Shown: piece after piece, positions 4,221-27,056 of the stretch | Layout of the letters: each line of letters begins with the position of its first letter | Numbering within the stretch: position 1 is the first letter of the stretch | Assembly: GCA_016195465.1 (NCBI GenBank) | Contig: JACPZO010000015.1 | Location: 1-48,235, forward strand | DNA: 48,235 bases | Direction of reading: 5' to 3' | Source of the DNA: Nitrospirota bacterium | Lineage (GTDB): Bacteria > Nitrospirota > RBG-16-64-22 | The notes under the pieces: model-generated | What the model saw: only the letters and a program-made list of their open reading frames with translations | Database searches by the model: none | What the model was told of the DNA's origin: nothing | Program-made: the position numbers and the translations under genes

Positions 4221-4572
4221 CTTGCGGACCTCCAGCCGGCCGGCCTTTCGGCGCGTTTTCTGCCGGGGCGGGCTCGCCGGCTTTCGCTTCCTTCTCGACG
4301 GGCGATTCCACGGCCGACGTGATCTGGCGGGCGGTGTCCTCCGCGGCTTTCTTCGTTTCCTCCAGGTACTTCTCGATGTCGGCTTTCTCCTCTTCGAGAC
4401 GGATCTGCTTGATCTCTTCGTCGATCGTCTCCTTGACCTCCTGCGTGGCCCGCTTGAACTCCGCGAACCCCTTCCCCACGGCGCGGGCGAGGTCCGGGAG
4501 TTTCTTCGGGCCGAAGACCAGAAGGGCGATGACGAAGATGACGATCAGCTCGGGGACACCGATTCCGAACAC
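4213..4572 (-). CDS. tatB: Twin-arginine translocase TatA/TatB family subunit
   Basis: [33 protein letters not shown]; overlaps tatC; TatA versus TatB cannot be resolved. Confidence 0.85.
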
Positions 4573-6900: not shown

Positions 6901-7052
6901 GCGGGTTGCGAAAAAGTCTTTTCCCTTCTCCCTCCGGGAGAAGGCCAGGATGAGGGGGATATTTAAAACAAATGTTTATGAAAGTGAGATCGCCCTCACC
7001 CCAACCCTCTCCCATGAGGAGAGGGGGCAAAAGGGGGTTCAGCAACCCTTTA
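6901..7052. repeat. Composite MITE/REP: IS-like ends enclosing a CCCTCACCCC..CCCTCTCCC REP pair
   Basis: GGGTTGCGAAAAAGTC...TTCAGCAACCC ends; internal CCCTTCTCCCTCCGGGAGAAGG..GATGAGGG and CCCTCACCCCAACCCTCTCCC..GGAGAGGG. Confidence 0.65.
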
Positions 7053-9879: not shown

Positions 9880-9982
9880 GGTTCGTCTGCCCCCTGACAG
9901 TGTCCCCGCCATTATAATGCCCCTCCGGGCCGGCCGCAACGTCGGCTTGGGCGCGACGCGCGCCTCCGCTATAATAACTCTG

Positions 9983-11656
9983 ATGGACGCGAAAGAACCC
10001 CCTCTCCAATCGCTCGATCCGGCGTTCGATTTCGCCGGCCCCTTTACATGGGACGAACTGCCCCGGATTCTCCTGCGCGCCCAGGCGGCGCGGGCGGCGG
10101 GACGCTTCGTTTTCCGGGGGGCGGGGGCGGAGAAGGTCGTCTGGCTCGACGAAGGGATGGTCGTCTTCGCCACGTCGAACTTGGGGGACGACCGGCTCGG
10201 GGAGATGCTGATCAGGGCCGGCATGATCACGCTGGACCAGTACGACGAGTCGGTCCGCCTCATCAAGGAGACGGGGAAGAAGCAGGGCGTCGTTCTCGTG
10301 GAGATGGGGGCGCTCACGCCGAAGGACCTCTTCGGCGGCCTCAAGTTCCAGGTGCGGGAGATCGTCGTGTCCCTGTTCTCCTGGCCGGAGGGGAGGGCCG
10401 TCTTCATTCCTCCGGCCGAGGGGGAGATGCCGCCGATCCGGGTCCACTTCTCTCCGCGAAGCCTCATCCTGGAAGGGATCCGCCGGCGGGCTGACTCGGC
10501 AAGGCTCAGGCGCCGCCTGCCTCCGAGAGACGCCGTCGTCCGGCTGAACCGGGCGGCCCTGCTCGAGGAAGGACCCGCGATTCTCCTGCCGGAGGAACAG
10601 AAGATCGTGGAGGCGGCGGACGGCGGTCCGACCGTCGCCCAGATTCTGGATAGGACGGAGGGGGAGGAATTCTCGAGGCTCAAAGCCCTTTACGCGTTGG
10701 CCTCCGCGGGCCTGTGCGTGGTCGAGGGAGGAACGGCGACCGTAGAACCCGAGCCCGGGCCGGACCGGGAAAGCGAAGAAGCGTTTCGGGAGAAAGCGGC
10801 GCCTCCACCGTCTCCAACTCCGGAACCGGCGGAGCCGTCGATTTCGCCCGGGCCTTCCCCCGAGCCAAAGACGTCCCCGGTCTCGGGGGCCGCGCCTTCC
10901 GGCGCGGAGGATGAGGAAGAGACCCCCGAAACGATCCGCCGGTTCCTCGATGGAATGGAGGGGAAAACACACTACGAGATCCTGGGCGTGTCCGAGGAGA
11001 CGGACGCCCGGGTCGTCCGCCGGGCGTACCTGAGGCTCGTGAAGCGGTTCCACCCCGACCTCCACACCCACAAGGGCCTCGAAGGGGCGAAGGAGGACCT
11101 CGAGGAGATCTTCATGCGCGCGAACGATGCCTACGAGGTCCTTTCGGACGAAGCCAGGCGGAAGGAATACGACCTGGATCGGTTCGGGCTGAAGGAGAGC
11201 GAGAAAGAGAAGGAACAGCAGACCCAGGCCGCGCGAGCGGCCGAGCAGTTTGCGCGGGGGAAGGCGGAGCTCGAGAAGGGGAACTTCTGGGGGGCGGAGG
11301 AGTTGTTCAAGTGGGCTGTCCGGCTGGATCCGACTCGAGCAAACCATTACTACTTTCTGGCCACGGCCCAGAGCCGCATTCCAAAGCGCCTGCACGAGGC
11401 CGAGGAGAACATTCAGAAGGCGATCGAGATCGCGCCTTCGCGGCCCGACTACCACGTTCTCCTCGGACAGATCTACTTGAGGGGCGGGCTCAAGGCGAGG
11501 GCCGTCAAGAAGTTCATGGAGGCGCTCAACTGGAACCCGAGCCATCCGGGGGCCTTGAAGGGGATCGAGGAGGCCGGCGAGGAGAAGCCCGCGTCGGCGA
11601 TCGAGGAGGCGGGCGGCGTCCTGGGCCGGTTTTTCGGCAAGAAGGAAAAAGACTGA
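9983..11656 (+). CDS. DUF4388-like N-domain + DnaJ domain + TPR repeats protein
   Basis: RLGEMLIRAGMIT and LFSWPEG (DUF4388-like); HYEILGV..KRFHPD..AYEVLSD J-domain; C-terminal TPRs. Confidence 0.88.
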   Translation: MDAKEPPLQSLDPAFDFAGPFTWDELPRILLRAQAARAAGRFVFRGAGAEKVVWLDEGMVVFATSNLGDDRLGEMLIRAGMITLDQYDESVRLIKETGKKQGVVLVEMGALTPKDLFGGLKFQVREIVVSLFSWPEGRAVFIPPAEGEMPPIRVHFSPRSLILEGIRRRADSARLRRRLPPRDAVVRLNRAALLEEGPAILLPEEQKIVEAADGGPTVAQILDRTEGEEFSRLKALYALASAGLCVVEGGTATVEPEPGPDRESEEAFREKAAPPPSPTPEPAEPSISPGPSPEPKTSPVSGAAPSGAEDEEETPETIRRFLDGMEGKTHYEILGVSEETDARVVRRAYLRLVKRFHPDLHTHKGLEGAKEDLEEIFMRANDAYEVLSDEARRKEYDLDRFGLKESEKEKEQQTQAARAAEQFARGKAELEKGNFWGAEELFKWAVRLDPTRANHYYFLATAQSRIPKRLHEAEENIQKAIEIAPSRPDYHVLLGQIYLRGGLKARAVKKFMEALNWNPSHPGALKGIEEAGEEKPASAIEEAGGVLGRFFGKKEKD

Positions 11657-11787
11657 CCCGCAATCCGGCCCAGGGACGGCGCGGGTGTTTGCCATCCGAG
11701 ACAACCGGAATGGCCGTCTGGATATATCTCCATACAGTTTTTCCGAAGGCTGGACCGTAAGTTCCCGTTGAATCTACGGCCGGTTCG

Positions 11788-11802
11788 TGGCACGGCCCCT
11801 GC
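11788..11802 (+). promoter_or_regulatory. Sigma-54 (-24/-12) promoter
   Basis: TGGCACGGCCCCTGC = GG-N10-GC, ~75 bp upstream of the ATG. Confidence 0.7.
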
Positions 11803-11878
11803 TTCAGGTTCCGCCGTCTTTCATCCAGCGCCGGTTCTCCGGCCCATTCTCGATCGCCAACAGACAGGGAGGTTTCCG

Positions 11879-12748
11879 ATGATCCAATCTCTCAAGAAGT
11901 TCCTCGTTTGTTCGCTCGGACTGGGGGTCGCCGCGAGCGTCCTCGTTTCCCCGGCTTTCGCGGAGATCTCCGTCGGGCTCCTGCCCCGCCTTCCGGAGGA
12001 GCAGATGATCAAGATGTTCGCGCCGCTGGCCGCCTACCTCGAAAAGGAGACGGGAGAGAAGGTGAAGCTCGTCATTCCCAGGGATTTCCAGTCGTTCAGG
12101 GGGGCCGTCGCCCGCGGAGAGGTGGACTACGGCTTCGCCAATCCGCTCGTCTACGTGCAGGCCAAGAAGGAGGGAGGCGCGGTCGCGCCGCTTGCGATCG
12201 CGGCGGAGCCCGCCGGGGGGACGGCGTTTCGAGGGATCCTGATCTCGCGGAAGGGGTCCGGAATCGAGAGCGTGTCCGGCCTCAAGGGAAAGAAGCTCGT
12301 TTTCGTCGAGCCGGATTCGGCGGCGGGGTACGTGGCCCAGATGCTCATGCTCAAGAACGCCGGCCTCGAGAAAGGGCGTGACTATACGGTTCTGCCGTTC
12401 GCCGGCAAGCACAGCGAAGTCGTGAAGGCCGTGGCCGAGGGGCGGGCCGACGCCGGGGGAATCCGGGACGGCGATCTGGAGATCGCGGCCAAGGCGGCGG
12501 GCGTACAGGCGGCGTCGATCCAGACGGTCGGGACGTCCGAGCCGATTCCGAACTGGGCCTTCTTCGCCACGAGGAAAGCCAACCCAAACAAGTCGAACAA
12601 GGTGCTTCAGGCCCTTCTCCGCCTCAAGCCGGGAAGCGAGGAGGCCTCCGTTGTTCTCGGCTTGGCTCATTTGACCGGCTTCGTCCTGACGGCCGACCAG
12701 GATTACGACCCGATGCGGAAGGCTGGACAGGCCGCGGGCGTTCTGTAA
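11879..12748 (+). CDS. Phosphate/phosphite/phosphonate-binding periplasmic protein (PhnD-like), orphan
   Basis: Signal peptide; PLAAYLEKETG, D(Y)GFANPLVYV, FVEPDSAAGY, GKHSEV..AV..GRADAG; RBS GGGAGG. Confidence 0.85.
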   Translation: MIQSLKKFLVCSLGLGVAASVLVSPAFAEISVGLLPRLPEEQMIKMFAPLAAYLEKETGEKVKLVIPRDFQSFRGAVARGEVDYGFANPLVYVQAKKEGGAVAPLAIAAEPAGGTAFRGILISRKGSGIESVSGLKGKKLVFVEPDSAAGYVAQMLMLKNAGLEKGRDYTVLPFAGKHSEVVKAVAEGRADAGGIRDGDLEIAAKAAGVQAASIQTVGTSEPIPNWAFFATRKANPNKSNKVLQALLRLKPGSEEASVVLGLAHLTGFVLTADQDYDPMRKAGQAAGVL

Positions 12749-16023: not shown

Positions 16024-16704
16024 GTGAGATCCAGGAGCCGTACCTTCAAGAACCGGATCTACGCGCAGTTTGCCCGCGTCGGGAAGGCTCTTTCCAGCCC
16101 CAAGAGACTGGAGCTCCTGGAGCTTCTGGCCCAGGGCGAGCGGACGGTCGAAGGCCTGTCGAGGGAGGCGTCACAAACCATCGCGAACTGCTCTCGGCAC
16201 CTTCAGGTCCTCAGGCAGGCCAACCTCGTGGAAACGCGCAAGGAGGGGACCTACGTCTATTACCGCCTTGCGGACGACGGCGTCAGCCGCTTCTGGCTTG
16301 AGCTTCGGGCTCTGGCCGAGGAGCGGCTGGCCGAGGTGGAACGCGTGGTGAGAGATTACATCGAGTTGAAGGACGACTTTGAGCCCATCGGCTGCTCTGA
16401 ACTGTTGGACAGGCTTCGAAAAGGCGAGGTCGTTGTTTTGGATGTCCGTCCCGAGGAAGAATACCGGGCTGGGCACCTCCCCGGCGCGCTCTCCGTTCCG
16501 CCCGGGGAGGTTGAACGGCGGCTGGCGAGTCTCCCGCGGGACAGGGAGATCGTGGCCTACTGCCGGGGCCGATATTGTGTTTACGCGGTGGAGGCGGTCA
16601 AGGCCTTACGTAAGCACGGCTATGCCGCCCGGCGCATGGAGCAGGGGATCCCCGAGTGGCGGCTCCTTGGTTTTCCCCTCGAAGTCGGGGGGACCGCGGG
16701 ATGA
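16024..16704 (+). CDS. ArsR/SmtB-family regulator fused to a rhodanese domain
   Basis: ALSSPKRLELLELL..SRHLQVLR..YYRLAD; VLDVRPEEEYRAGHLPGA; AYCRGRYC active-site loop; GTG start after AAAGGA. Confidence 0.92.
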   Translation: MRSRSRTFKNRIYAQFARVGKALSSPKRLELLELLAQGERTVEGLSREASQTIANCSRHLQVLRQANLVETRKEGTYVYYRLADDGVSRFWLELRALAEERLAEVERVVRDYIELKDDFEPIGCSELLDRLRKGEVVVLDVRPEEEYRAGHLPGALSVPPGEVERRLASLPRDREIVAYCRGRYCVYAVEAVKALRKHGYAARRMEQGIPEWRLLGFPLEVGGTAG

Positions 16705-16785
16705 AACATCAGTCCGGCCGATGCGCGGAAGATGTCGGGGGTTCTTCCTCGGCCCTCCCAAGAACCCTGAGTTAGGGAAGGACCA

Positions 16786-17478
16786 ATGGGAAATAAGGCG
16801 ACAGCCGGGAATGGGAACGCCCGAGAATCCGGGGTGCGGACCCTCAACCGATTCCTGGCCCAGACGGCCGACGGGGCATTCGTCCTAGACGAGCGACATT
16901 GTATCGTTCTCTGGAACAAGGCCTGTGAGCGCATCTTCGGTCTGGATCCCCGCATTGTGCTGGGGAAGCCGTGCTGGGAAGTGGTCGGCGGAGAGGACCG
17001 CTACGGAAACCCGATCTGCCTCTCTCGGTGCTTGGTCTCCGCTGCCGCCCGCCAGGGGCGGCTTGTGAAAAGCTTCGAGATGCGGATCCTCCGGAAGGGG
17101 GAGCCGGTGTGGATCAGCGCAAGCACTCTCTTCGTTCGGGGTCACCAGAAGGGTCTCTCGACCACCATCCATCTTGTGCGGGAAAGCTGGGATCCGCGCG
17201 GGCTGGAAGGCCATCTTCAGGAACTGCTCGCGCGATTGGAAAAACACCCGTTGGCGGAAAAGGAATCTCTAGACGCGAAGGCCATGCCGCCGCTCAGTCC
17301 GCGGGAAAGAGAAGTCCTCTCCTGCTTGTCGCGGGGCCAGCACGCGAAGGAGATCGCCCGGCAGCTCGGCGTGAGTCCGAGCACGGTGCGCAGCCACGTC
17401 AAGACCATCCTCTGCAAGCTCGAAGTCCACAGTCAGCTCGAGGCTGTTGCCCACGCGTTCCAGCACCACCTGCTCTGA
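16786..17478 (+). CDS. PAS-domain + LuxR-type HTH transcriptional regulator
   Basis: DGAFVLD..IVLWNKACERIFG..GKPCWEV PAS; LSPREREVL..KEIARQLGVSPSTVRSHVKTILCKL. Confidence 0.92.
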   Translation: MGNKATAGNGNARESGVRTLNRFLAQTADGAFVLDERHCIVLWNKACERIFGLDPRIVLGKPCWEVVGGEDRYGNPICLSRCLVSAAARQGRLVKSFEMRILRKGEPVWISASTLFVRGHQKGLSTTIHLVRESWDPRGLEGHLQELLARLEKHPLAEKESLDAKAMPPLSPREREVLSCLSRGQHAKEIARQLGVSPSTVRSHVKTILCKLEVHSQLEAVAHAFQHHLL

Positions 17479-17515
17479 TCCCTTCTCCGTCCTTCGGGTC
17501 CTTCGGCGGCGTTTT

Positions 17516-17554
17516 TCCCCTATCTGTGGGAGCAAAATCCCCTCGCTGGGGGAT
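17516..17554 (+). promoter_or_regulatory. Tandem dyad boxes, candidate PAS-LuxR operator
   Basis: TCCCCTATCTGTGGGA and ATCCCCTCGCTGGGGGAT with 22-bp periodicity upstream of the molybdoenzyme operon. Confidence 0.5.
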
Positions 17555-17737
17555 AGTATTCGAGAGGCTGCCGGCGTAGCCTTTGTTTCCAGCAATTCCC
17601 GCGAGTGCTTTCGTACCGCGATCCCCCCGGATGGACCCGATCTGGCCCCGACTGCGCGTCAAGGCCAGCGTTGATGGTCGTTCCCCTGATGTTACGCCTC
17701 ATGCGACGCCAACGGTCCCAGGCAAAAGGAGCAGATC

Positions 17738-20665
17738 ATGAAGGCAATCGGAAGAAGGGAGTTCCTGAAGGGGTCCGGAGTGGGCCTTCTTGCCCTGCTG
17801 GCTACGCCGGACTTGGCCTTTTCGAAGATCCAGGCCGTGGGCGACCCCCTGCGGGAATACCCCTACAGGGGGTGGGAGGATCTCTACCGGAAAGAGTGGA
17901 CTTGGGACAGGGTCCAGTACGCCACCCACAGCGTGGGGTGCGTGGGCAAATGCTCGTGGAAGGTCTACTCCAAGGACGGGATCCCGCTCCGGGAGGAACA
18001 GACGGCGACCTATTCCACCTACGCCCGGCGCACGCCCGGAAAGTACACTTGGAAATGCAATGGAAAGGAGCGAGGGGAGTATATCCGGTACGGTCCGGGC
18101 GGGGTCGTCCCTTCCTATTCGCCCCGGGGCTGCCAGAAAGGGATCGTCTACTCCGACTACATGAAGCAGGGAAACTTCCTCAAGTACCCGCTCAAGAGGG
18201 TGGGCGAGCGCGGGGGGAGGAAGTGGAAGAGAATCTCCTGGGAGCAGGCGTTCGACGAGATCGCGGAGAAGATCATCGAGACCACGCTGAAGGACCCGGG
18301 AGCGATGATCACCACCTCACGGGCTTTTTCGCAGCTTTCCAAGGGGAGCTCGGAGCGGTTCACGGGGCTCCTGGGCGGGCAGCTCGTCCCCGTCTCGGCC
18401 ATGGTGGGCGATGCCTATCCGGCGGGCCATACGGTCCTGATCGGAAGGATCGGCTCTACCCGGGACGACTGGTTTACAGCCGACCTCTTCATCGGCTGGA
18501 CCCAGAATTTCACCGCCATGGCGATGCCCGACGCCCATTTCGCCCACGAGGCGAAGTATAACGGCGCAAGGATTATTGTGGTTGACCCGAACCACAATGT
18601 GACTGCCGCGCAGGCCGCGGACCTCTATGTGCCGATAAGGATGGGGAGCGACTCCTATCTCGCGGCGGCAATCTGCAATGCCATCATCAAGGAGAAGAAA
18701 TACGATGAGGACTTTCTGAAGGAGCAGTCGGATTTGCCGTTCCTCATAAGGCTCGATACCAAAAAGTTCCTTGCCCAGAAGGACATGAAGCCGGATGGCA
18801 AGGAGTTTCAGTATTATTTTTGGGACACAAAGACCAATCAGGCCGTTGAAGCTCCCGGATGCCTTGACAGCCCAAAGGAAAAAAAGACTCTCGATATTGC
18901 GAAGCTCGGTTTTGACCCGGCCCTGGAAGGAAAATACAAAGTAAAGCTTGCGGATGGCAAAGAAATCGAATGCACGACGGTTTTCGAGATGACAAAGGCC
19001 GGGATATCAGAATACGACATGAATAGCGCGCTCGTGAGAGAGACAACGGGACTCCATCCCTCGGTCATCCGGACCATGACCGACTGGATGCTGGAGTCAA
19101 AATCCCTCCATATCACAAATGGGTATAACTGCCAGAAGCATTATGACGGGTATCAGTCCGAGAGGCTCAAGCTCTTGATACTTACCCTCACGGGACAAAT
19201 CGGAGGACCGGGCGCCTATCATCAGACCTATGAAGGCATGAAGCTCGAAGGGGGGCGGGCGGCGGGCGGCCTTCACTTTCCTGACCAGCCTGCTCGTCCC
19301 GAATTTGGGATAGAGGCTAAAAAAGGCGGTAAGCAACCGCCGAGCGTGGGTATCTACCACGAGGTCATCTACGGGAAGAGCCTCGAGCGGAGCAAGAAGT
19401 ATTTCGCCGGCACGCCCCTCAAGGAGCAGATCGGCTTCGACGTGAACGACATGGAGGCGTTCCTCGGGGACGCCCTCCAGAAGAAGTACCTCCCCAGCCA
19501 GAAGACGCCCAAGATCGCCCTCTGGCACTCCTGCAACAACTACCGCAACAAGACCGGCCAGCAGTGGTGGAGGGATAACTACCTGAAGAATCTCGATCTC
19601 CTCATCGTGACGGAGCTCAGGATGTCAGCCTCCGCCCAGTCCGCCGATTATGTCCTGTCAGCGGCAACCGACTACGAGAGGTGGGACGGCAGAGAGACAA
19701 CCAGTAATCCCTTCTTCACCCTTTTTGGGCGGGCCGTCAAGCCGATGTTTGGCCGGAGATCGGACTGGCAGATCTACGCGGGTCTCTGCAAGGCGATCCA
19801 GGAGAAGGCCATCGCCAGGAGGGTTGGGAGCATTCCCTTCGAGTACTGGGACGGGACGAAGAAGGTCAAGCGGACCATAGACCTTCAGACTATACATGAC
19901 GAGTATATACAGAATGGCGAGTTGGACACAGATGAGAAGGCGCTAAAGTGGCACAATATGAAGTCTAAAGGGCTTGGCGGTGAGGAAGGCTACGAGAAAT
20001 TCGTAAAAGAGGGTTATGTAAAATTCAGAGGACCCGCCAAATATGGCAACTACGAAGACGATGCCCCTGCCAGATCCATGAGATGGCAGGTCATAGACAA
20101 AAAGCCGTCCAAGACCAATACAGGAAGGTTCCAGTTCTATGTTGACCACGAGTATCACATAAAGTTGAACCAGATGACGCCGAAGCCTCAATACACCGAC
20201 AAATGGAAGGGCGGACCCATCATGCCGAGGAAGCCCGACGGAAGCCCATACCCATTCGTGATGAACTATCCCCACACTAAGTGGGGCATCCATTCGTCCT
20301 TCAGGGAAAACCAGTGGTTGATGAGGCTCCAGAGGGGGGAGGTCTACCTCTACCTGAGTCCCAAGGTCATGCGGGAGAGGGGGATCAAGGACATGAACAT
20401 AGTGAGAGTGTACAACCACATGGGCGAGTGGTTCGCCCGGGCCAAGGAGTGGCCGGGACTGCCGCCCTATATCGTCTTCACCGAGCACGGCTGGGACCAT
20501 CAGTACACAAAGAATTGGACGCACTACAATAACCTGAATTGCGAGTTCCTGAACCCCCTGGAGATGGCCGGCGGGACCCGGGGACACATCGTCTACACCG
20601 GAAACCACACCGGTAACCGCATCTACTACGAGACAGGCGTGGACATCGAGAAGGTGGAGGGCTGA
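17738..20665 (+). CDS. Type II DMSO-reductase-family molybdoenzyme, catalytic alpha subunit (Tat-exported; Ebd/Ser/Clr/Pcr/Ddh/Nar-related)
   Basis: GRREFLK twin-arginine signal; YPYRGWEDLYR; FS0 motif THSVGCVGKC...PRGCQKG; MVGDAYP (probable Asp Mo ligand); YPHTKWGIHSSF. Confidence 0.93.
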   Translation: MKAIGRREFLKGSGVGLLALLATPDLAFSKIQAVGDPLREYPYRGWEDLYRKEWTWDRVQYATHSVGCVGKCSWKVYSKDGIPLREEQTATYSTYARRTPGKYTWKCNGKERGEYIRYGPGGVVPSYSPRGCQKGIVYSDYMKQGNFLKYPLKRVGERGGRKWKRISWEQAFDEIAEKIIETTLKDPGAMITTSRAFSQLSKGSSERFTGLLGGQLVPVSAMVGDAYPAGHTVLIGRIGSTRDDWFTADLFIGWTQNFTAMAMPDAHFAHEAKYNGARIIVVDPNHNVTAAQAADLYVPIRMGSDSYLAAAICNAIIKEKKYDEDFLKEQSDLPFLIRLDTKKFLAQKDMKPDGKEFQYYFWDTKTNQAVEAPGCLDSPKEKKTLDIAKLGFDPALEGKYKVKLADGKEIECTTVFEMTKAGISEYDMNSALVRETTGLHPSVIRTMTDWMLESKSLHITNGYNCQKHYDGYQSERLKLLILTLTGQIGGPGAYHQTYEGMKLEGGRAAGGLHFPDQPARPEFGIEAKKGGKQPPSVGIYHEVIYGKSLERSKKYFAGTPLKEQIGFDVNDMEAFLGDALQKKYLPSQKTPKIALWHSCNNYRNKTGQQWWRDNYLKNLDLLIVTELRMSASAQSADYVLSAATDYERWDGRETTSNPFFTLFGRAVKPMFGRRSDWQIYAGLCKAIQEKAIARRVGSIPFEYWDGTKKVKRTIDLQTIHDEYIQNGELDTDEKALKWHNMKSKGLGGEEGYEKFVKEGYVKFRGPAKYGNYEDDAPARSMRWQVIDKKPSKTNTGRFQFYVDHEYHIKLNQMTPKPQYTDKWKGGPIMPRKPDGSPYPFVMNYPHTKWGIHSSFRENQWLMRLQRGEVYLYLSPKVMRERGIKDMNIVRVYNHMGEWFARAKEWPGLPPYIVFTEHGWDHQYTKNWTHYNNLNCEFLNPLEMAGGTRGHIVYTGNHTGNRIYYETGVDIEKVEG

Positions 20666-20668
20666 GAC

Positions 20669-21880
20669 ATGTCCGAGTTCACGGGAAAGCAGCTCGCCGC
20701 GGTCTTCGATCTCAACAAATGCCTCGAATGCCACACCTGCACCCTGGCCTGCAAGCTCATGTGGACGAACCGGGGCGGCCGCGAATACATGTACTGGAAC
20801 AACGTGGAGACCATGCCGGGGTTCGGTTATCCCAAGGGGTGGGGAAACGGGACGAACCAGACCGCGTCCGGGGAAGGACAGGTCCTGGGCGGAGGCTTCC
20901 GGAGCGTGGCGTTGGAGGAAGGGAGGAGCGACGGGAAGGTCAAGAGCCGGGGCTCCGTGATCCGGGACGGGAAGATCCCGGAGATGGAAGATGACTACGG
21001 CCTTCCGTGGGAGTACGACTACGAGGCGGTGTTCGAGCCCGGCGCCTCTTTCGAGACGCCCGGGGCCACGGGTCCGCGGCCTCACTGGGAGGGGAAGGAG
21101 GTCAGGCCCAAGTGGGGCCCGAACTGGGAAGAGGACCAGGGGGCCGGCGAGTGGCCCAATCACTGGGCGCTTGCCCTTCCCCGGATCTGCAACCATTGCA
21201 CCCATCCGGCCTGCCTGCAGGCCTGCCCGAGGAAAGCGATCTACAAGAGGCAGGAGGACGGCGTCGTCCTCGTGGACCAGGACCGGTGCAGGGGTTATCG
21301 CCACTGCGTCAGGGCGTGTCCCTACAAGAAGCCTTATTTCAACGTCCTCGTCGGCAAGACCGAGAAGTGCCTCCTTTGCTACCCCAGGGTCGAGAAGGGC
21401 GTGCCGCCGGCCTGCTTCTGGCAGTGCCCGGGGAGGATCCGGTTCATCGGCTGGAAGGACGACCCGAAGAGCGCGGTCCACAAGCTTGTCAACGAGTGGA
21501 AGGTTGCCCTGCCTCTGCACCCGGAGTTCGGGACGGAGCCCAACGTTTTCTACGTGCCGCCGGTCGGCTCCTTCAAGTTCGGGCCGAACGGCGAGATGAC
21601 CCAGGAGAGAAGGATTCCCCTTCAGTACCTGGCCCGTCTCTTCGGGGGGGCTGAGAACGTGAAGCGCGCTCAGGACGTCATTCTGGCGGAACGGGAGAAG
21701 ATGAGGAAGGGGATCAAGAGCGAGCTCTGCATGATCCTGATCGGCCATGACAACGAGGACCGGTTCCAGCTCAACGTGGACGGCAAGCCTTTCAAGAGGC
21801 CGGAAGAGGTCCAGCCGGTCAAGACCCAGTTCGTGGCGCCATCCGAGGACCCTGAAAAACCCTCTCGCGGGGACGTCTGA
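20669..21880 (+). CDS. Type II DMSO-reductase-family beta subunit (three [4Fe-4S] + one [3Fe-4S])
   Basis: FDLNKCLECHTCTLACK, YMYWNNVET, CNHCTHPACLQACP, CRGYRHCVRACPYKK, KCLLCYPR, LPLHPEFGTEPNVFYVPP. Confidence 0.95.
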   Translation: MSEFTGKQLAAVFDLNKCLECHTCTLACKLMWTNRGGREYMYWNNVETMPGFGYPKGWGNGTNQTASGEGQVLGGGFRSVALEEGRSDGKVKSRGSVIRDGKIPEMEDDYGLPWEYDYEAVFEPGASFETPGATGPRPHWEGKEVRPKWGPNWEEDQGAGEWPNHWALALPRICNHCTHPACLQACPRKAIYKRQEDGVVLVDQDRCRGYRHCVRACPYKKPYFNVLVGKTEKCLLCYPRVEKGVPPACFWQCPGRIRFIGWKDDPKSAVHKLVNEWKVALPLHPEFGTEPNVFYVPPVGSFKFGPNGEMTQERRIPLQYLARLFGGAENVKRAQDVILAEREKMRKGIKSELCMILIGHDNEDRFQLNVDGKPFKRPEEVQPVKTQFVAPSEDPEKPSRGDV

Positions 21881-22587
21881 TGGAGACGACCCGGAATATC
21901 GAGGTCGCGGGGCCCGCCCGGCGCATCGAATCCACAAGCCGGATATACCTGCTCCTGGGCCGGTTCTTCTCCTATCCCGACGGGCGTTTCTACGGGACAA
22001 CGAAAGATCCGCGGATACAGGAGGACCTGCGCTCTCTTGTGGATGGGCTGCCTTTTGACGTGAAGTTCGAGGACATCCCCTCTCCTTCCGTTCCGCAGGA
22101 CGAGTTCGAATCCGAGTACATCAATTCCTTCGACATCACCCCGCCTTGTCCCCTGTACGAGTTCCACTACAGAAGCGGAGAACTGACCCGCAGGGAGATC
22201 CTCGAGGAGCTCCTCTGCTTCTACGGACACTTCGACGTCAAGCTGAGCGAGACGGAAAAAGACTATCCGGACCACCTGGTGGCGGAGCTGGAATTCATGG
22301 CTTTCCTCGCGATGAAGGAGGCCGACGCCGGAGAGCGGGGGACGGACCCGGACCCCTACCGCAGGGCCCAGCGAGATTTCCTGGAGAGGCACTTGGGGCG
22401 ATGGGTCGATAGACTGGACGCACGGATCCGGAAAGTCACCCGGGAGCGCTTTTACAGGGGGGCGAGTTTTCTCCTGAGGGAGTTTGTGAAGAGCCACCTC
22501 TTGCACCTTCGAGAGCAAGGGAGCGCCGAATCAATCGTCCCCCCGGGCTTGGGAGGAGATTGCGCTGAAAGGGAGGCGTCGCCATGA
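21880..22587 (+). CDS. Delta subunit / TorD-NarJ-like maturation chaperone
   Basis: CPLYEFHY, FYGHF, YPDHLVAELEFMAFL, YRRAQRDFLERHLGRW; translationally coupled. Confidence 0.92.
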   Translation: METTRNIEVAGPARRIESTSRIYLLLGRFFSYPDGRFYGTTKDPRIQEDLRSLVDGLPFDVKFEDIPSPSVPQDEFESEYINSFDITPPCPLYEFHYRSGELTRREILEELLCFYGHFDVKLSETEKDYPDHLVAELEFMAFLAMKEADAGERGTDPDPYRRAQRDFLERHLGRWVDRLDARIRKVTRERFYRGASFLLREFVKSHLLHLREQGSAESIVPPGLGGDCAEREASP

Positions 22588-24059
22588 CGAGAATAGTGAA
22601 GTGGGCGTGGGTTTCATTCGGTGTGTTTCTCATGGGGACGGCCTCAGAGGGAGCAGCCCCCGCCCCTTCGAGACAGGGCGAGGCGCTTTACAAGGAGCAA
22701 TGTTCCATTTGCCACGGCGCCGAAGGCAAGGGGGACGGCTCCGCGGCCGAATTCCTTTTCCCCAAGCCGAGAAATTTCACGACCGGCACGTTCAAGGTTC
22801 GCTCGACCCCCAGCGGCTCCCCACCGACGGATCAAGACCTCTTGAACACGGTGACCCAAGGGATGCCGGGCTCGGCCATGCCGGGGTTCTCGTTCCTCTC
22901 CAAGGGAGATCGCCTGGCCCTGGTCAGCCACGTCAAGAGACTCGCCAATCTCCAGGAGAAGCCCGAGGGGACCATCGCGGTCTCTTCGCCCCCCGCGGCG
23001 ACGCCGGAAACTCTTGCCCAGGGAAAGAAGCTTTACCGGGAGATGAAATGCTGGGAGTGCCACGGCGATGAGGGGCGGGCGGATGGTCCGTCGACCGGCA
23101 CACTGAAGGATGATTCGGGGGAGGCCATCCTCGCGAACGACTTTACCCGCGGCATCTACAAGGGGGGAGGAACTCTCTCCGACATCGTCTTCCGCTTCGC
23201 CACGGGGATGGACGGGACTCCGATGCCCTCCTACGAAGATTCGCTCAAGGAGCCGGAGCGCTGGGCGCTGGCCCGCTACGTGAAGTCCCTGGCGGGTCCG
23301 AAGGTGGCGGTTCAGCCGACCACGGGAACGGTTGTGGTGAAGAGAGTCTCGGGGCCCGTTCCGACCGACACCATGGATCCGGCATGGGGGAAGGTCCCCG
23401 CCGTCCCCGTTCCGCTCATGCTGCTCTGGCAGAGGAACGAGGCGGCCGCCGACGAGGTCTCGGTCAAGGCCTTGCACAACGGGAAAGAGATCGCGCTGCT
23501 GCTCGAATGGAAAGACGAGGAGGTCAGTACGCGGTTCCGCCGCGATCGCCACTTCGCCGACGCGGCCGCCGTCATGTTCTCGCTCGCGCCCCAAGTCCCT
23601 CTTTCCCGGCAGGCGCACTTCGCCATGGGGGAAAAGAAGAAACCGGTCAACATCTGGTACTGGGCGCTGGACCGGCGCATGGACCTCGTCGGCGTTGAGC
23701 CTCCGGTCCAGCCGGCTTTCGCGCGCGGTCCGGCCCTCGTTGCAGGGTGGGGATCGGGGAATGCGGCCTCGGTCCCCTTGAGGCCCTCGGCGATTGTCGA
23801 GGACCTGAACGCGGAAGGTTTCGGGACACTTACGGCCCAGCCGCGCGCGGACCAGAACGTCAACGGATCCGGGTTCTACGCGGCCGGCCGCTGGAGAGTT
23901 GTCTTTACCCGCGACCTTCGCTCAAGAGGTGCGCTCGACGCGCCGCTTGAGCCTGGCCGGGCCATCCCGGTTGCGTTCGCCGTCTGGAACGGTTCCGCGG
24001 AGGACCGCGACGGCCAGAAAGCGGTCTCTACCTGGTACAGGCTTGTGCTGGCGAGATAG
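22584..24059 (+). CDS. Gamma subunit: di-haem cytochrome c fused to an ethylbenzene-dehydrogenase-gamma (haem b/DOMON) domain
   Basis: Signal peptide; CSICH and CWECH; AMPGF and PMPSY distal Met motifs; ALHNGKEIALLLEWKD, AMG, VNIWYW, AFAVWNGS..RDGQK. Confidence 0.9.
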   Translation: MTRIVKWAWVSFGVFLMGTASEGAAPAPSRQGEALYKEQCSICHGAEGKGDGSAAEFLFPKPRNFTTGTFKVRSTPSGSPPTDQDLLNTVTQGMPGSAMPGFSFLSKGDRLALVSHVKRLANLQEKPEGTIAVSSPPAATPETLAQGKKLYREMKCWECHGDEGRADGPSTGTLKDDSGEAILANDFTRGIYKGGGTLSDIVFRFATGMDGTPMPSYEDSLKEPERWALARYVKSLAGPKVAVQPTTGTVVVKRVSGPVPTDTMDPAWGKVPAVPVPLMLLWQRNEAAADEVSVKALHNGKEIALLLEWKDEEVSTRFRRDRHFADAAAVMFSLAPQVPLSRQAHFAMGEKKKPVNIWYWALDRRMDLVGVEPPVQPAFARGPALVAGWGSGNAASVPLRPSAIVEDLNAEGFGTLTAQPRADQNVNGSGFYAAGRWRVVFTRDLRSRGALDAPLEPGRAIPVAFAVWNGSAEDRDGQKAVSTWYRLVLAR

Positions 24060-24514: not shown

Positions 24515-26020
24515 CTATGCCTCTTCCTTCTCCGACGCCCTCGCGGCGCGGTTGTAGGCCCAGTGCTCGATCTTCTTGATCTGCTCCTGCATCGTGACGG
24601 AGAGGGGCACCGTCCGGTCGAGGGCGATCATGATGTCCCTCTGCTGGAGGGGCCGCTTATCGCTGAACGCCTCGAACATGGCGCTCACGACCGCCTGCTC
24701 GATCTCCGCCCCCGAGAACCCCTTCGTTCCGTGGGCCAGAAGGTTCAGGTCGAAGTCGTCCGGGTTGTTCTTTCGCGTGGACATGTGGATCCGGAAGATC
24801 TGCTTGCGCTCCTCCTTCGTGGGGAGCGAGACGAAGAAGATTTCGTCGAACCGCCCTTTCCGAAGGACCTCCGCGGGGAGGAGGTCGATCGCGTTGGCCG
24901 TGGCGGCGACGAAGACGAAACCCTGCTTCTCCTGCATCCAGGTGAGAAACGATCCGAGGACGCGCGACGCGGCGCCTCCTTCCGCCTTGAACCCCTGGAC
25001 GGAGATTCCCGCCTCGATCTCGTCGATCCACAGGACGCAAGGGGCCACGGCCTCGGCCGTGTGCGCCGCCTTGAGAAAGGCTTCCTCCGGCGAGCCGAAC
25101 GAGCCGCCGTAGATCTTGGACATATCGAGGCGGAGCAGGGGAAGGTTCCAGAAGGAGGCGATGGCCTTCACGAAGAGGGACTTCCCGCAGCCGGAGATCC
25201 CGGTCATCAGGACGCCCTTGGGGAGCGACAGGCCGAACTCCCGCGCCTCCTCCGAGAAGAGCGTCTGGCGCTTGACGAGCCAGTCCTTGAGCATCTTCAT
25301 CCCGCCGATGTCCTCGAGGCGGATGCCGGCTTCCGCGAACTCCATGATCCCGCTCTTTTTTATGAATTGCTGTTTCTCCTCGAAGATCGTCCTGGGGACG
25401 GACGCGTCGATCGCGTTCTTGCCCACGAGGGCGCGGCGGAATGCCCGCTCCGCTTCCGGGTAGGAAAGACCCATGGCGGCGGCGAGAATCTGCTGTTTGA
25501 CGTCGGCCGGCAGGGAGGCGAGAGAAGGCGCCAACTGTTTGTTGGGGGAGGCCGTCCGCGTGAAAAGCGCATCGAGCTCGTCGGCACCCGGCAGTCCCAT
25601 GTCCACGACGAGCGTGATCGTCGAGAGCTCCGCCGGAAGGTGCAGGGTCGGAGAGGAAAAGACGAGGCACGAGTAGGTCGGCCGGAACCTCTGGTAAACG
25701 TCCTTGAGGCGGCGAACGATCTCGATGTCGGACAGAATGCGACGGTGGAGGTCGTGGAAGAGATAGAACGCGACCTCCGAACGGCCCGCGGCCCAGGCGA
25801 GGGCCGGCTCGGCGTCCCGAGGCGCTCCCTCGACCGGTTTGCCGCCCTGCGTCACTCCGTCGGAAAGCGTCCAGCGGTAGAGAGGGACGGGCTTCGAGAA
25901 GGCCCTGCCGGCGAGGTCCTGCATGAGCGTCTCGATCCGCTCGTCCCCTTCCGTGACGGCGCAGATGAGGGGCGTGCGGGCGACAATCGAACGATGGATT
26001 TGCTCGGAGGGACTGGGCAT
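24515..26020 (-). CDS. AAA+ ATPase, Ycf46-like
   Basis: DIGGMKMLKDWL, PKGVLMTGISGCGKS, PCVLWIDEIE, FLTWMQEK, LRKGRFDEIFFV. Confidence 0.92.
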   Translation of the reverse strand: MPSPSEQIHRSIVARTPLICAVTEGDERIETLMQDLAGRAFSKPVPLYRWTLSDGVTQGGKPVEGAPRDAEPALAWAAGRSEVAFYLFHDLHRRILSDIEIVRRLKDVYQRFRPTYSCLVFSSPTLHLPAELSTITLVVDMGLPGADELDALFTRTASPNKQLAPSLASLPADVKQQILAAAMGLSYPEAERAFRRALVGKNAIDASVPRTIFEEKQQFIKKSGIMEFAEAGIRLEDIGGMKMLKDWLVKRQTLFSEEAREFGLSLPKGVLMTGISGCGKSLFVKAIASFWNLPLLRLDMSKIYGGSFGSPEEAFLKAAHTAEAVAPCVLWIDEIEAGISVQGFKAEGGAASRVLGSFLTWMQEKQGFVFVAATANAIDLLPAEVLRKGRFDEIFFVSLPTKEERKQIFRIHMSTRKNNPDDFDLNLLAHGTKGFSGAEIEQAVVSAMFEAFSDKRPLQQRDIMIALDRTVPLSVTMQEQIKKIEHWAYNRAARASEKEEA

Positions 26021-26213
26021 CGCACGCCATCCTACCGGCTTTGCGCTCTTCGGTCAACGCTTACGCGAACGGGTCCGGATGCGAGCCATTCCCAGATGCG
26101 AGCCATTCCTTGCGGGAGAGTCCGGGCCGCTGTATATTGGGTCGGGTCGAGGACGGCTTGACCGGCGGCATGGTGTCTCGACGAACTCAAGGAGAACACG
26201 GGCAGTCAAAATC

Positions 26214-27056
26214 ATGAATCGAACGGTTTCGCAAGCCATCCGTCTCGGCCATTCCCCCGACCCCGACGACGCCTTCATGTGGTGGCCGCTGGCCGCGGGG
26301 AAGGTCGACTCGGGGAGTTGGCGGGTCGTGCACCTCCTCGAGGACATCGAATCGCTCAACCGCCGGGCGATGATGGGCGAGCTCGAGATCACGGCCGTCT
26401 CGATCCATGCCTACGCCTATCTCGCGGATCGCTACCTTCTCCTCCCCCACGGCGCCAGCATGGGGGACGGATACGGGCCTCTCCTCGTTTCGCGGGAGCC
26501 GATGACTCCCGCCGATCTCGCGGGAGCGACGATCGCCGTGCCCGGACGGATGACGTCCGCCTTCCTGGCGCTCAAGCTCTACAGGCCGAACGTCCGGGAG
26601 ATCGTCGTTCCGTTCGACGAGATCCCCCGGTACGTGGCCGACGGGAAGGCGCCCGTGGGTCTCCTCATCCACGAGGGCCAGCTCACGTATGGAAACCTCG
26701 GCCTTCACAAGGTCGCGGACCTGGGCGCGTGGTGGAAGGAAGAGACGGGTCTCCCCTTGCCGCTCGGCGGGAACGCGATCCGAAGAGACCTTGGCCCGGA
26801 GGCGATCCGGGAGCTTTCGACGATTCTCAAGTCCTCCATCCGTTACGCCCTCGATCATCGGGAGGAGGCCCTGGGCGCGGCGATGAAGTACGCCCGCGAC
26901 ATGGGGCGGGACCTCGCCGACCGGTTCGTGGGGATGTACGTGAACGACTACACGCTCGATTACGGGCCGAAAGGACGGGAAGCGATCGCGCTCTTCCTCG
27001 ACCGGGCGCGCCAAGCCGGCCTCGTTCCGCCGGTCGGGGTCGAGTGGGCGGAATGA
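26214..27056 (+). CDS. mqnD: 1,4-dihydroxy-6-naphthoate synthase (futalosine menaquinone pathway; MqnA/MqnD family)
   Basis: GHSPDPDDAFM, DIESLN, GDGYGP, IHEGQLTY, LPLPLG, MYVNDYT. Confidence 0.88.
   Translation: MNRTVSQAIRLGHSPDPDDAFMWWPLAAGKVDSGSWRVVHLLEDIESLNRRAMMGELEITAVSIHAYAYLADRYLLLPHGASMGDGYGPLLVSREPMTPADLAGATIAVPGRMTSAFLALKLYRPNVREIVVPFDEIPRYVADGKAPVGLLIHEGQLTYGNLGLHKVADLGAWWKEETGLPLPLGGNAIRRDLGPEAIRELSTILKSSIRYALDHREEALGAAMKYARDMGRDLADRFVGMYVNDYTLDYGPKGREAIALFLDRARQAGLVPPVGVEWAE

What the first reader, a model, noticed from the sequence alone, without database searches (positions are those of the whole stretch)
16024..24059. Complete regulated operon for a divergent periplasmic type II DMSO-reductase-family enzyme of unknown substrate
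Seen: alpha (Tat signal, His/Cys FS0 motif, probable Asp ligand in MVGDAYP), beta, delta and gamma in tight operon order, preceded by ArsR-rhodanese and PAS-LuxR regulators. Established: this architecture is shared by ethylbenzene, steroid-C25 and DMS dehydrogenases and by selenate, chlorate and perchlorate reductases. The alpha subunit is not one I can assign to any of them. It has a ~25-aa Cys-containing insertion between the third and fourth FS0 ligands and atypical active-site flanks. No chlorite dismutase or hydrocarbon-degradation genes are adjacent. Inference: a new clade of respiratory molybdoenzyme; the persulfide-type regulator hints at a sulfur or selenium oxyanion/organosulfur substrate.
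Basis: partly seen in the sequence, partly recalled or inferred. Interest (0 to 1): 0.85.

Follow-up and report, generated by a model that had tools for sequence, protein, structure and literature searches.

The report
Uncharacterised periplasmic molybdenum oxyanion enzyme operon
A groundwater sulfur-oxidising bacterium carries a complete operon for an exported molybdenum enzyme that is a distinct, untested cousin of chlorate and selenate reductases, joined to an unusual three-haem cytochrome subunit; its substrate is still unknown.

Summary
The operon is real: ArsR-rhodanese, PAS-LuxR, then alpha (Tat signal, FS0 motif, Asp225), beta, delta and gamma, tightly packed. Alpha is not inside a characterised clade. 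It sits in a small clade (16 clusters at 76-89% identity). With a 58-60% sister group this clade branches beside the Ideonella ClrA / SerA clade (43.8% identity to ClrA).

That points to a small oxyanion, not an organosulfur or hydrocarbon substrate.

New here: gamma is a fusion of a dihaem cytochrome c with a haem-b domain, the "alternative NxrC" type known from nitrite oxidisers. Relatives carry a cupredoxin, an anion porin, a PhnD-like binding protein and a bd-like oxidase nearby.

No full-length chlorite dismutase match appears in 7 of 7 host genomes. The sulfur-type regulators are specific to this genus.

Best guess: a respiratory reductase of a selenate-like oxyanion (0.5). An oxidising role is the main rival. 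The scan noted this clade before on other DNA (e1-4478883).

The parts
16024..16704 (+). ArsR/SmtB-type HTH fused to a rhodanese domain (226 aa; Cys56, Cys124, Cys180, Cys185). Candidate sulfane-sulfur or oxyanion-responsive regulator.
   Evidence: Pfam HTH_5 plus Rhodanese, NCBIfam HTH_metalloreg 80 bits. PDB matches to ArsR-family proteins, thiosulfate sulfurtransferase, BigR and an ArsR-family regulator. Start codon checked. Syntenic in L001 and L003 and present in L076.
16786..17478 (+). PAS-LuxR (GerE) one-component regulator, 230 aa.
   Evidence: Pfam PAS plus GerE. Found upstream of alpha only in the three genomes of this genus: window, L001 and L003.
17515..17554 (.). Two adjacent inverted repeats (TCCCC-N7-GGGAG and ATCCCC-N6-GGGGAT), about 185-220 bp upstream of alpha. 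Candidate operator.
   Evidence: It is the only well-conserved block, apart from the ribosome site, in the alignment of the three intergenic regions. Binding has not been tested.
17738..20665 (+). Alpha, the catalytic Mo-bisPGD subunit, 975 aa, Tat-exported.
   Evidence: PF00384 plus PF01568. TIGR03479 861 bits, below the cut-off of 984.75. EbdA 364 and PcrA 361 bits. ClrA 43.8% identity. Tree.
17927..18133 (+). FS0 [4Fe-4S] motif H64-C68-C72...C132.
18026..18100 (+). 25-aa clade-specific insertion (aa 97-121) between the third and fourth FS0 ligands.
   Evidence: Present in the window clade and the 58% sister group and absent from all other groups.
18410..18412 (+). Codon of Asp225, the predicted molybdenum ligand.
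   Evidence: Aligns with EbdA Asp223. Asp in 60 of 60 sequences.
20669..21880 (+). Beta, the four-cluster Fe-S subunit, 403 aa. It has three clade-specific insertions and a C-terminal extension of about 30 aa.
   Evidence: TIGR03478 461 bits (cut-off 480.7), PF13247. 16 Cys, of which 15 lie in four groups. The insertions are shared with the 58% clade and absent from ClrB, the beta of the C78 operon and Haloferax NarH.
21880..22587 (+). Delta, a NarJ/TorD-type assembly chaperone, 235 aa.
   Evidence: TIGR03482 158.4 bits, above the cut-off of 152.3; PF02613.
22584..24059 (+). Gamma, 491 aa: signal peptide, dihaem cytochrome c (CSICH at 40, CWECH at 156), then an EB_dh haem-b domain.
   Evidence: PF00034/PF13442 twice, plus PF09459. 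aa 29-240 score 204 bits against PDB 6H5L_B. aa 288-490 score 106 bits against Kuenenia NxrC 7B04_C, compared with 51 bits against EbdC. 26% identity to Ideonella ClrC. Motif positions.
11768..12748 (+). PhnD-like periplasmic binding protein (PF12974), 5 kb upstream. Possibly linked to the operon; uncertain.
   Evidence: TIGR01098 125 bits. The same blastp cluster lies near alpha in 8 of 26 loci. Here the PBP1A gene separates it from the operon.

Best explanation
This is a Tat-exported, soluble periplasmic alpha-beta-gamma molybdoenzyme of the type II (Asp-ligated) DMSO-reductase family. It belongs to an uncharacterised clade that branches beside the chlorate reductase (ClrA group 1) / selenate reductase (SerA) clade.

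Shown:
- All cofactor-binding motifs are present, plus a dedicated chaperone.
- The active-site and gate positions are those of the ClrA/SerA clade.
- Gamma is not of the ClrC type. It is an 'alternative NxrC'-type fusion of a dihaem cytochrome c with a haem-b domain.

Inferred:
- The enzyme transfers an oxygen atom to or from a small oxyanion at the Mo centre.
- Electrons pass through FS0, the four beta clusters, haem b and two c haems to or from the periplasmic high-potential pool (cytochromes c; cupredoxin and a bd-like membrane protein in relatives).
- In this sulfur-oxidising, denitrifying organism it most likely works as a respiratory reductase for a high-potential oxyanion. Selenate is the likeliest substrate; nitrate, bromate, iodate or chlorate are possible alternatives or side substrates.
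- It is probably switched on through ArsR-rhodanese and PAS-LuxR acting at the conserved repeats upstream.
For: Family and motifs.

Placement (SH-aLRT 100 on each of the next three nodes):
- window clade plus 58% group;
- these plus the P0024/25 group;
- all of these together with the clade holding Ideonella ClrA;
- the Ddh/ClrA group 2 clade lies outside.
Clark 2013 (PMC3735179, passages read) places Ideonella ClrA with Thauera SerA.

Active site:
- R195, F197, S220, Y227, H468, D470 and E499 are identical in 39 of 39 sequences of the superclade.
- Among the 32 window-clade and ClrA/SerA-clade rows the same residue is kept by 31 at V219, N464 and Y498 and by all 32 at K467. In the 58% group (4 rows) V219 is Pro and K467 is Arg.
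- The Ddh clade differs at all of these except K467 and N464, each kept by 8 of its 18 rows.
- Positions 219, 220 and 502 map to the PcrA gate residues F164, Y165 and W461 (PMC6650914 figure legend). They are V/S/K here and V/S/R-or-K in the ClrA clade.

Oxyanion hints from relatives:
- Porin_O_P anion porins lie next to alpha in 5 of 26 loci, and in L009.
- PhnD-like binding proteins lie beside the sensor kinases in 8 of 26 loci.

Not chlorate respiration: no full-length Cld match in 7 of 7 host genomes.

Respiratory context:
- The nap operon lies directly upstream in L003.
- A related dihaem cytochrome c sits beside NosZ in this genome.
- SerABC takes electrons from a dihaem cytochrome c4 (cited in PMC3578206, passages read). 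A fused dihaem domain fits that scheme.

The conserved operator-like repeats are shown.
Against: - No activity, expression or ligand data exist. No RNA run was listed.
- The direction of electron flow cannot be read from sequence. High-potential haems b and c and cupredoxins serve dehydrogenases as well as reductases.
- The gamma type, the cupredoxin and the bd-like protein are the set that accompanies nitrite-OXIDISING enzymes (PMC3578206, PMC6606698).
- SBP plus kinase plus sigma-54 regulator systems are known for arsenite oxidases (recalled from memory, not checked here).
- SerA itself could not be placed in my tree, because no labelled sequence was obtainable.
- Two positions next to the Mo ligand differ from the ClrA clade: 226 is Ala rather than Leu, and 231 is His rather than Gln.
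- The mapping of the other positions to the active site rests on alignment to EbdA and on residue roles (His192, Lys450) that I recall and did not verify.
Confidence: 0.5

Rival explanations
1. The enzyme runs oxidatively. It would be a periplasmic oxyanion dehydrogenase (nitrite, arsenite, selenite, sulfite or phosphite) that passes electrons through the alt-NxrC-type gamma to cytochromes c, a cupredoxin and a bd-like membrane complex, as periplasmic nitrite oxidoreductase is thought to do.
For: - The haem-b domain of gamma is closer to Kuenenia NxrC (106 bits) than to EbdC (51 bits) or ClrC (66 bits, 26%).
- The dihaem part scores 204 bits against a Kuenenia dihaem cytochrome.
- In relatives a cupredoxin-like gene is present in 8 of 26 loci and a bd-like oxidase gene in 2 of 26.
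- The same set (alt NxrC, mono- and dihaem c, cupredoxins, bd-like oxidase) is conserved in NXR clusters of Nitrospira, Nitrospina and Kuenenia (PMC3578206, PMC6606698).
- The own genome holds that module on contig C111 and has haem-copper oxidases.
- Binding protein plus kinase plus sigma-54 regulator resembles AioXSR (recalled).
Against: - Alpha is far from NxrA (145 bits against Kuenenia NxrA, compared with 739-744 bits by tblastn against ClrA).
- It keeps the ClrA/SerA residues at the mapped active-site and gate positions.
- The alt-NxrC-type protein family is very widespread (2561 hits, many non-nitrifying phyla). It therefore marks a wiring style, not a direction.
- A related dihaem cytochrome sits next to NosZ, which is a reductase.
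Confidence: 0.25
2. It is a periplasmic nitrate reductase (a pNar-like enzyme), either duplicating Nap or replacing it in hosts that lack it.
For: - Nitrate is the abundant oxyanion in aquifers.
- The operon abuts the nap operon in L003.
- Two host genomes (G004, G008) showed no NapA over the cut-off, and none of 5 showed NarG.
- Related enzymes reduce several oxyanions in vitro (Clark 2013).
Against: - NapA is present over its cut-off in 4 of 6 host genomes, including this one.
- Alpha is much closer to ClrA than to NarG.
- The gate positions differ from the Haloferax pNarG, PcrA-like and ClrA3-like outgroup rows, which have F/Y at 219/220.
- The NarG search missed even the type II alphas themselves, so its negative result is weak.
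Confidence: 0.1
3. It is a dissimilatory chlorate reductase like ClrABC.
For: ClrA is the nearest characterised relative (43.8% identity). The two share the gate residues and most of the mapped active-site positions.
Against: - There is no chlorite dismutase in this 93%-complete genome.
- None of 7 host genomes has a full-length Cld match. Two show only 40-46-bit partial matches.
- In GWC2_42_11 the cld gene lies beside the PcrA-like and ClrA3-like genes, not beside the homologue related to this clade.
Confidence: 0.04
4. It is a dehydrogenase for DMS or another neutral organosulfur or hydrocarbon substrate.
For: The architecture is shared with DdhABC and EbdABC. A sulfur-type regulator lies upstream.
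Against: - The Ddh/ClrA2 clade differs from the window clade at most compared positions; for example Gly replaces Arg195 in 17 of 18 sequences.
- The EbdA equivalog model scores 363 bits against a cut-off of 2000.
- No hydrocarbon genes are nearby.
- The regulators are genus-specific.
Confidence: 0.04

Closest known systems
Chlorate reductase ClrABDC of Ideonella dechloratans (and Alicycliphilus denitrificans BC)
   Same: - Gene order alpha-beta-delta-gamma, Tat signal and AFSKIQ cleavage region, FS0 motif and Asp ligand.
- Same residues at 11 of 13 mapped active-site and gate positions.
- Sister-group position in the tree.
   Different: - Only 43.8-44.1% identity in alpha.
- A 25-aa insertion in alpha.
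- Three insertions and a tail in beta.
- Gamma is 26% identical and carries an added dihaem cytochrome c.
- No chlorite dismutase, and no composite transposon as at the Ideonella locus.
Selenate reductase SerABDC of Thauera selenatis
   Same: - It is reported to group with Ideonella ClrA (PMC3735179).
- It is a soluble periplasmic enzyme fed by a dihaem cytochrome c4 (cited in PMC3578206). The fusion seen here would hard-wire that arrangement.
   Different: SerC is a single haem-b protein.
Alternative NxrC / bd-like oxidase module of periplasmic nitrite oxidoreductase clusters (Nitrospira, Nitrospina, Kuenenia)
   Same: - Gamma has c-haem sites plus the haem-b domain.
- Relatives carry cupredoxin, extra cytochromes c and a bd-like oxidase.
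- The own genome has the module on contig C111.
   Different: - The catalytic subunit here is ClrA/SerA-like, not NxrA-like (145 bits against Kuenenia NxrA).
- This gamma has no C-terminal membrane helix (read from the sequence). N. moscoviensis alt_NxrC_2 has one.
Ethylbenzene dehydrogenase EbdABC and perchlorate reductase PcrAB (solved structures 2IVF, 4YDD)
   Same: Overall fold family; Asp ligand, FS0 and a full-length alignment.
   Different: About 360 bits only. The PcrA aromatic gate F164/Y165/W461 is V/S/K here. The EbdA equivalog model falls far below its cut-off.

Membership tests
Type II (Asp-ligated) DMSO-reductase family enzymes | Conserved Asp ligand of Mo | tested here: met
   Asp225 aligns with EbdA Asp223. 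Asp in 60 of 60 sequences. The ligand role comes from PMC8840923.
Type II (Asp-ligated) DMSO-reductase family enzymes | FS0 motif H-x3-C-x3-C-xn-C and a Tat signal on alpha | tested here: met
   H64, C68, C72, C132; RREFLK at aa 6-11.
Type II (Asp-ligated) DMSO-reductase family enzymes | Four-cluster beta, NarJ-type delta, haem-b gamma (EB_dh) | tested here: met
   PF13247 with four Cys groups. TIGR03482 is over its cut-off. PF09459 scores 97 bits.
Type II (Asp-ligated) DMSO-reductase family enzymes | Scores above NCBIfam subfamily cut-offs (TIGR03479/03478/03477) | tested here: not met
   alpha 861 vs 984.75; beta 461 vs 480.7; gamma 138 vs 169.85. The proteins are divergent but match the models over their full length.
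Chlorate reductase ClrABDC | Alpha inside the ClrA clade | tested here: not met
   It is in a sister clade on a long stem, at 43.8% identity.
Chlorate reductase ClrABDC | Chlorite dismutase in the genome or locus | tested here: not met
   No full-length match in 7 of 7 host genomes. The genomes are incomplete MAGs; this one is 93% complete.
Chlorate reductase ClrABDC | Chlorate reduction activity | not testable with these tools
   Needs an enzyme assay.
Selenate reductase SerABDC | Alpha groups with Thauera selenatis SerA | not tested
   No labelled SerA sequence was obtainable. The position is inferred from Clark 2013.
Selenate reductase SerABDC | Selenate reduction with a cytochrome c donor | not testable with these tools
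   A fused dihaem c domain is compatible with this but proves nothing.
Periplasmic nitrite oxidoreductase NXR | Alpha in the NxrA clade | tested here: not met
   145 bits against Kuenenia NxrA 7B04_B, compared with 364 bits against EbdA and 739-744 bits by tblastn against ClrA.
Periplasmic nitrite oxidoreductase NXR | Accessory set: alt NxrC, cytochromes c, cupredoxin, bd-like oxidase | tested here: inconclusive
   Gamma is of the alt-NxrC type. Cupredoxin (8 of 26 loci) and bd-like oxidase (2 of 26) occur only in relatives. In this genome the set is unlinked, on contig C111.
Ethylbenzene / hydrocarbon dehydrogenases | EbdA equivalog score | tested here: not met
   NF042978 scores 363 bits against a cut-off of 2000.
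DMS dehydrogenase DdhABC / ClrA group 2 | Alpha in the Ddh clade with its active-site residues | tested here: not met
   It lies outside that clade. Most compared positions differ. The genome's second operon, on C78, is the one that falls on that side.

The most novel reading that the evidence does not exclude
A ClrA/SerA-type catalytic core has been captured by the electron-transfer set of nitrite oxidisers (alt-NxrC-type three-haem subunit, cupredoxin, bd-like membrane protein). It would then work as an energy-conserving oxidase of an inorganic oxyanion. That would be either a further independent origin of nitrite oxidoreductase or a first type II arsenite, selenite or phosphite oxidase. The operon is spreading by horizontal transfer among at least six groundwater phyla.
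Probability: 0.2. Interest if true: 0.9.

Novelty: new variant of a known kind. Interest (0 to 1): 0.6.

Why it matters
Type II molybdoenzymes define whole respiratory guilds: nitrate, nitrite, selenate, chlorate, perchlorate, DMS and hydrocarbons.

- This clade has no tested member, yet it is well conserved (76-89% identity).
- It is found in MAGs assigned to Nitrospirota, Methylomirabilota/Rokubacteria, Planctomycetota, Acidobacteriota, Nitrospinota and Thermodesulfobacteriota from aquifers.
- It therefore probably confers a useful and transferable redox trait in groundwater.
- It shows that a catalytic core and an electron-exit subunit of different lineages can be recombined.
- If the substrate is selenate, it would extend selenate respiration to sulfur-oxidising autotrophs. 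If it is an electron donor, it would be a new lithotrophic metabolism.

Tried and rejected
- EbdA reference for the tree: a family search in 151 genomes of the order around a Rhodocyclales MAG found none. EbdA and PcrA distances therefore come from PDB bit scores only. PcrA-like and ClrA3-like sequences of GWC2_42_11 served as the outgroup.
- SerA label: the cluster names of 10 ClrA-clade proteins showed no selenate reductase.
- RNA evidence: no RNA holder was listed. Four groundwater DNA runs of one study hold at least half of the sampled words of the stretch.
- A look-up of earlier findings by place returned nothing.
- Group 3 chlorate reductase (Barnum and Coates 2020): the paper is not in the library. 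It was rejected as the identity of this clade because the ClrA3-like gene next to cld in GWC2_42_11 is only 31% identical to alpha and groups with PcrA.
- Sigma-54 promoter upstream of alpha: reading the three-way alignment showed no conserved -24/-12 element. No formal scan was made.
- The window's own kinase and sigma-54 regulator (7050-10683): the regulator is 40-43% identical to those beside alpha in L004, L007, L038 and L076, and the kinase matches only in its core. This is not enough to call them orthologues.
- The NarG family search returned nothing even where type II alphas exist, so it is a weak negative.
- No structure was predicted. The tools return no coordinates, so the substrate funnel could not be examined.
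- Literature: searches found no paper that describes this clade. The two papers on class RBG-16-64-22 contain none of the words DMSO, chlorate, selenate or molybdopterin.
- Supplementary tables were not available (for example Table S7 of PMC11033732 on NxrA/NarG hits). They might list this protein under another name.

Full report
**What is there.** The stretch 16024-24059 holds six genes on the + strand.
- An ArsR-type HTH fused to a rhodanese domain (16024-16704). The GTG start sits behind a ribosome site.
- A PAS-LuxR regulator (16786-17478).
- After 259 bp, four tightly packed genes: alpha 17738-20665, beta 20669-21880, delta 21880-22587 and gamma 22584-24059.

Alpha has a twin-arginine signal (RREFLK), the FS0 motif H64/C68/C72/C132, and Asp225. 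Asp225 aligns with the Mo-ligand Asp223 of ethylbenzene dehydrogenase (PMC8840923, passages). Beta has 15 of its 16 Cys in four groups. Delta passes NCBIfam's cut-off for the type II chaperone. Alpha, beta and gamma match their type II models end to end but fall below the cut-offs: 861/984.75, 461/480.7 and 138/169.85 bits.

**Where alpha belongs.**
- Against solved structures alpha scores 364 bits (EbdA), 361 (PcrA), 166 (NarG) and 145 (Kuenenia NxrA).
- Among 5.8 billion clustered proteins the listed hits fall into bands: 16 clusters at 76-89% identity, 4 at 58-60% (995-999 aa), 2 at 48-50%, about 40 at 41-46%, and then a 33-37% band.
- The biochemically known chlorate reductase of Ideonella dechloratans is 43.8% identical. 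That of Alicycliphilus BC is 44.1% identical.

I built a tree (IQ-TREE, LG+G4, SH-aLRT) of 60 rows:
- the window alpha;
- 53 of the 120 listed hits, chosen by hand to cover all bands (P0019, an 805-aa fragment, was dropped);
- Ideonella ClrA;
- the genome's second alpha;
- three GWC2_42_11 proteins;
- Haloferax NarG.

In this tree the window clade joins the 58% group (support 100, stem 0.5). These then join the P0024/25 group (100). The resulting 23-row group is sister to the 15-row group that holds Ideonella ClrA (that join has support 80). With P0033 as the earliest branch, these 39 rows form a superclade (support 100). The Ddh/ClrA group 2 clade lies outside. Clark et al. 2013 (PMC3735179, passages) report that Ideonella ClrA groups with Thauera SerA and the other ClrAs with DdhA. 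I could not obtain a SerA sequence to test this myself.

**Clade-specific structure.**
- The 25-aa insertion between the third and fourth FS0 ligands is shared by the window clade and the 58% group and is absent elsewhere. Its Cys107 is kept in only 13 of 16 and 0 of 4 sequences respectively.
- Beta carries three insertions and a C-terminal tail with the same distribution.

**Active site.** Three positions can be mapped with some support. Positions 219, 220 and 502 align with the PcrA gate residues F164, Y165 and W461. PMC6650914 (figure legend) names these residues and says that Haloferax NarG has Glu at the last one, and my alignment shows that too. The window clade has V/S/K(R) there, and the ClrA/SerA clade has V/S/R(K).

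At the other compared positions the whole 39-sequence superclade is nearly uniform. These are R195, F197, Y227, N464, K467, H468, D470, Y498 and E499, which lie next to the ligand Asp or aligned to EbdA His192 and Lys450 (roles recalled, not verified). The Ddh clade and the outgroup differ. Only 226 (Ala vs Leu) and 231 (His vs Gln) separate the window clade from the ClrA clade. The active site is therefore not atypical. It is ClrA/SerA-like, with a smaller residue next to the ligand.

**Gamma is the surprise.** It is 491 aa: a signal peptide, two CxxCH motifs, then the haem-b EB_dh domain.
- Residues 29-240 match a dihaem cytochrome c of Kuenenia (PDB 6H5L_B) at 204 bits.
- The haem-b part matches Kuenenia NxrC (106 bits) better than EbdC (51 bits), and better than Ideonella ClrC (66 bits, 26%).
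- Proteins with this three-domain build are very common: 2561 hits, with all 120 listed having the same Pfam architecture except one fragment, from many phyla.
- Lücker et al. 2013 (PMC3578206) and Mundinger et al. 2019 (PMC6606698) (passages) call such proteins 'alternative NxrC'. They describe a conserved set around periplasmic NXR: alt NxrC, mono- and dihaem cytochromes c, cupredoxins and a bd-like oxidase.
- This genome has that set on contig C111 with a 31%-identical paralogue of gamma. A 40%-identical dihaem cytochrome lies beside NosZ on C104.

**Neighbourhoods.** I compared 26 non-redundant loci of the close clade: the window, 9 genome loci and 16 metagenome loci. Four exact duplicates (L079-L081 and L088) were dropped. 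Many loci are cut by contig ends. Families were named on representatives only.

| Feature | Loci (of 26) |
|---|---|
| Fused dihaem/haem-b gamma | 13 |
| Haem-b gamma with separate cytochromes c | 4 |
| No gamma seen | 9 |
| PhnD-like binding protein (PF12974) | 8 |
| Cupredoxin-like protein (C-x2-H-x2-M) with a carboxypeptidase-regulatory-like tail | 8 |
| Porin_O_P anion porin | 5 (also in L009 of the 58% group) |
| bd-like oxidase | 2 |
| ArsR-rhodanese | 4 |
| PAS-LuxR | 3 |
| Cache/HAMP/HisKA_3 kinase | 5 |
| NarL-type regulator | 6 |
| PAS kinase | 4 |
| Sigma-54 regulator | 5 |

Regulation is therefore host-specific, while the redox wiring recurs. In L003 the nap operon lies directly upstream.

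**Host and transfer.**
- The genome (2.6 Mb, 93% complete) is of the same genus as Nitrospirae RBG_16_64_22 and a Hainich aquifer MAG. 3 of 3 genomes of the genus carry the operon. 0 of 38 other sampled Nitrospirota do.
- Relatives at 76-85% identity sit in MAGs named Rokubacteria, Planctomycetota, Acidobacteria, Nitrospinota and Thermodesulfobacteriota. Binning errors cannot be excluded.
- GC drops to 0.568 over alpha, against 0.646 for the genome.
- Between the window and L003, alpha and beta are 84% and 81% identical, but delta and gamma only 58% and 50%. The operon is mosaic.
- Papers on class RBG-16-64-22 infer sulfur oxidation by reverse Dsr, the rTCA cycle and denitrification (PMC11033732, PMC10203281; passages).
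- In line with that, I found two dsrAB sets, NapA, NosZ and haem-copper oxidases.

**Function.** Chlorate respiration is unlikely. No full-length chlorite dismutase match was found in 7 of 7 host genomes, and two have only 40-46-bit partial matches. The ClrA/SerA-type active site, the anion porins and the PhnD-like sensors point to a small oxyanion.

Direction is open. The high-potential haems and the cupredoxin would serve either a reductase fed from the cytochrome c pool, as in SerABC, or an oxidase feeding it, as in NXR. I favour a reductase of a selenate-like oxyanion (0.5) because of the catalytic kinship and the respiratory neighbourhood. I keep an oxidative role as the main rival (0.25).

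An earlier report of this scan on another genome (e1-4478883) reached the same general reading. It is not independent evidence.

Noticed in passing
L068 (G000 contig C78:22000-34418); alpha at L068:4611-7388: This is a second type II operon in the same genome: alpha 926 aa, beta 326 aa, and a 369-aa EB_dh protein. It falls on the Ddh/ClrA group 2 side of the tree. It is flanked by a YeeE-type sulfur transporter, a tandem rhodanese and an FCSD/SQR-like flavoprotein. This operon, rather than the window's, is the one embedded in sulfur genes. It is present in all 3 genomes of the genus.
   Followed up: partly
L066 (G000 contig C111:1-8904): A gene cluster encodes a bd-like oxidase, two cytochromes c, a dihaem-c/EB_dh protein and a cupredoxin-related carboxypeptidase-regulatory-like protein. 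This is the set described as conserved beside NXR in nitrite oxidisers and anammox bacteria. No nitrite-oxidoreductase-type subunit was named among this genome's nine molybdopterin proteins.
   Followed up: partly
L067 (G000 contig C104:15000-26000): A dihaem cytochrome c, 40% identical to the N-terminal half of gamma, lies directly upstream of nosZ and nosD.
   Followed up: no
L056 (G000 contig C103:1-3820): A formate dehydrogenase-N-type alpha subunit has one in-frame TGA, probably selenocysteine. Similar TGA-bearing genes occur in the two sister genomes. The organism therefore probably needs and handles selenium.
   Followed up: no
window 16024-24059 vs L003:6304-14482: The operon is mosaic within one genus. 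Alpha and beta are 84% and 81% identical, but delta and gamma only 58% and 50%.
   Followed up: no
window 7050-12748: A sigma-54 response regulator (7050-8417, minus strand), a HAMP histidine kinase (8395-10683, minus strand) and a PhnD-like binding protein (11768-12748, plus strand) lie 5-10 kb upstream. The layout resembles the three-component sets directly beside alpha in other phyla, but orthology is not shown.
   Followed up: partly
window 3432-4572: tatC and a tatA/B-family gene lie 13 kb upstream of this Tat-dependent operon.
   Followed up: no
window 25923-27056: Two long ORFs overlap on opposite strands. The plus-strand ORF carries the futalosine-pathway MqnA domain (PF02621, 252 bits) and is the real gene. 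My GC3-based caller picked the minus-strand ORF instead.
   Followed up: no
L057, L058, L060 (MAG GWC2_42_11): This MAG holds three type II alpha genes. A PcrA-like gene and a ClrA3-like gene lie beside cld on one contig. A third, on another contig, is 50% identical to the window alpha and away from cld.
   Followed up: partly
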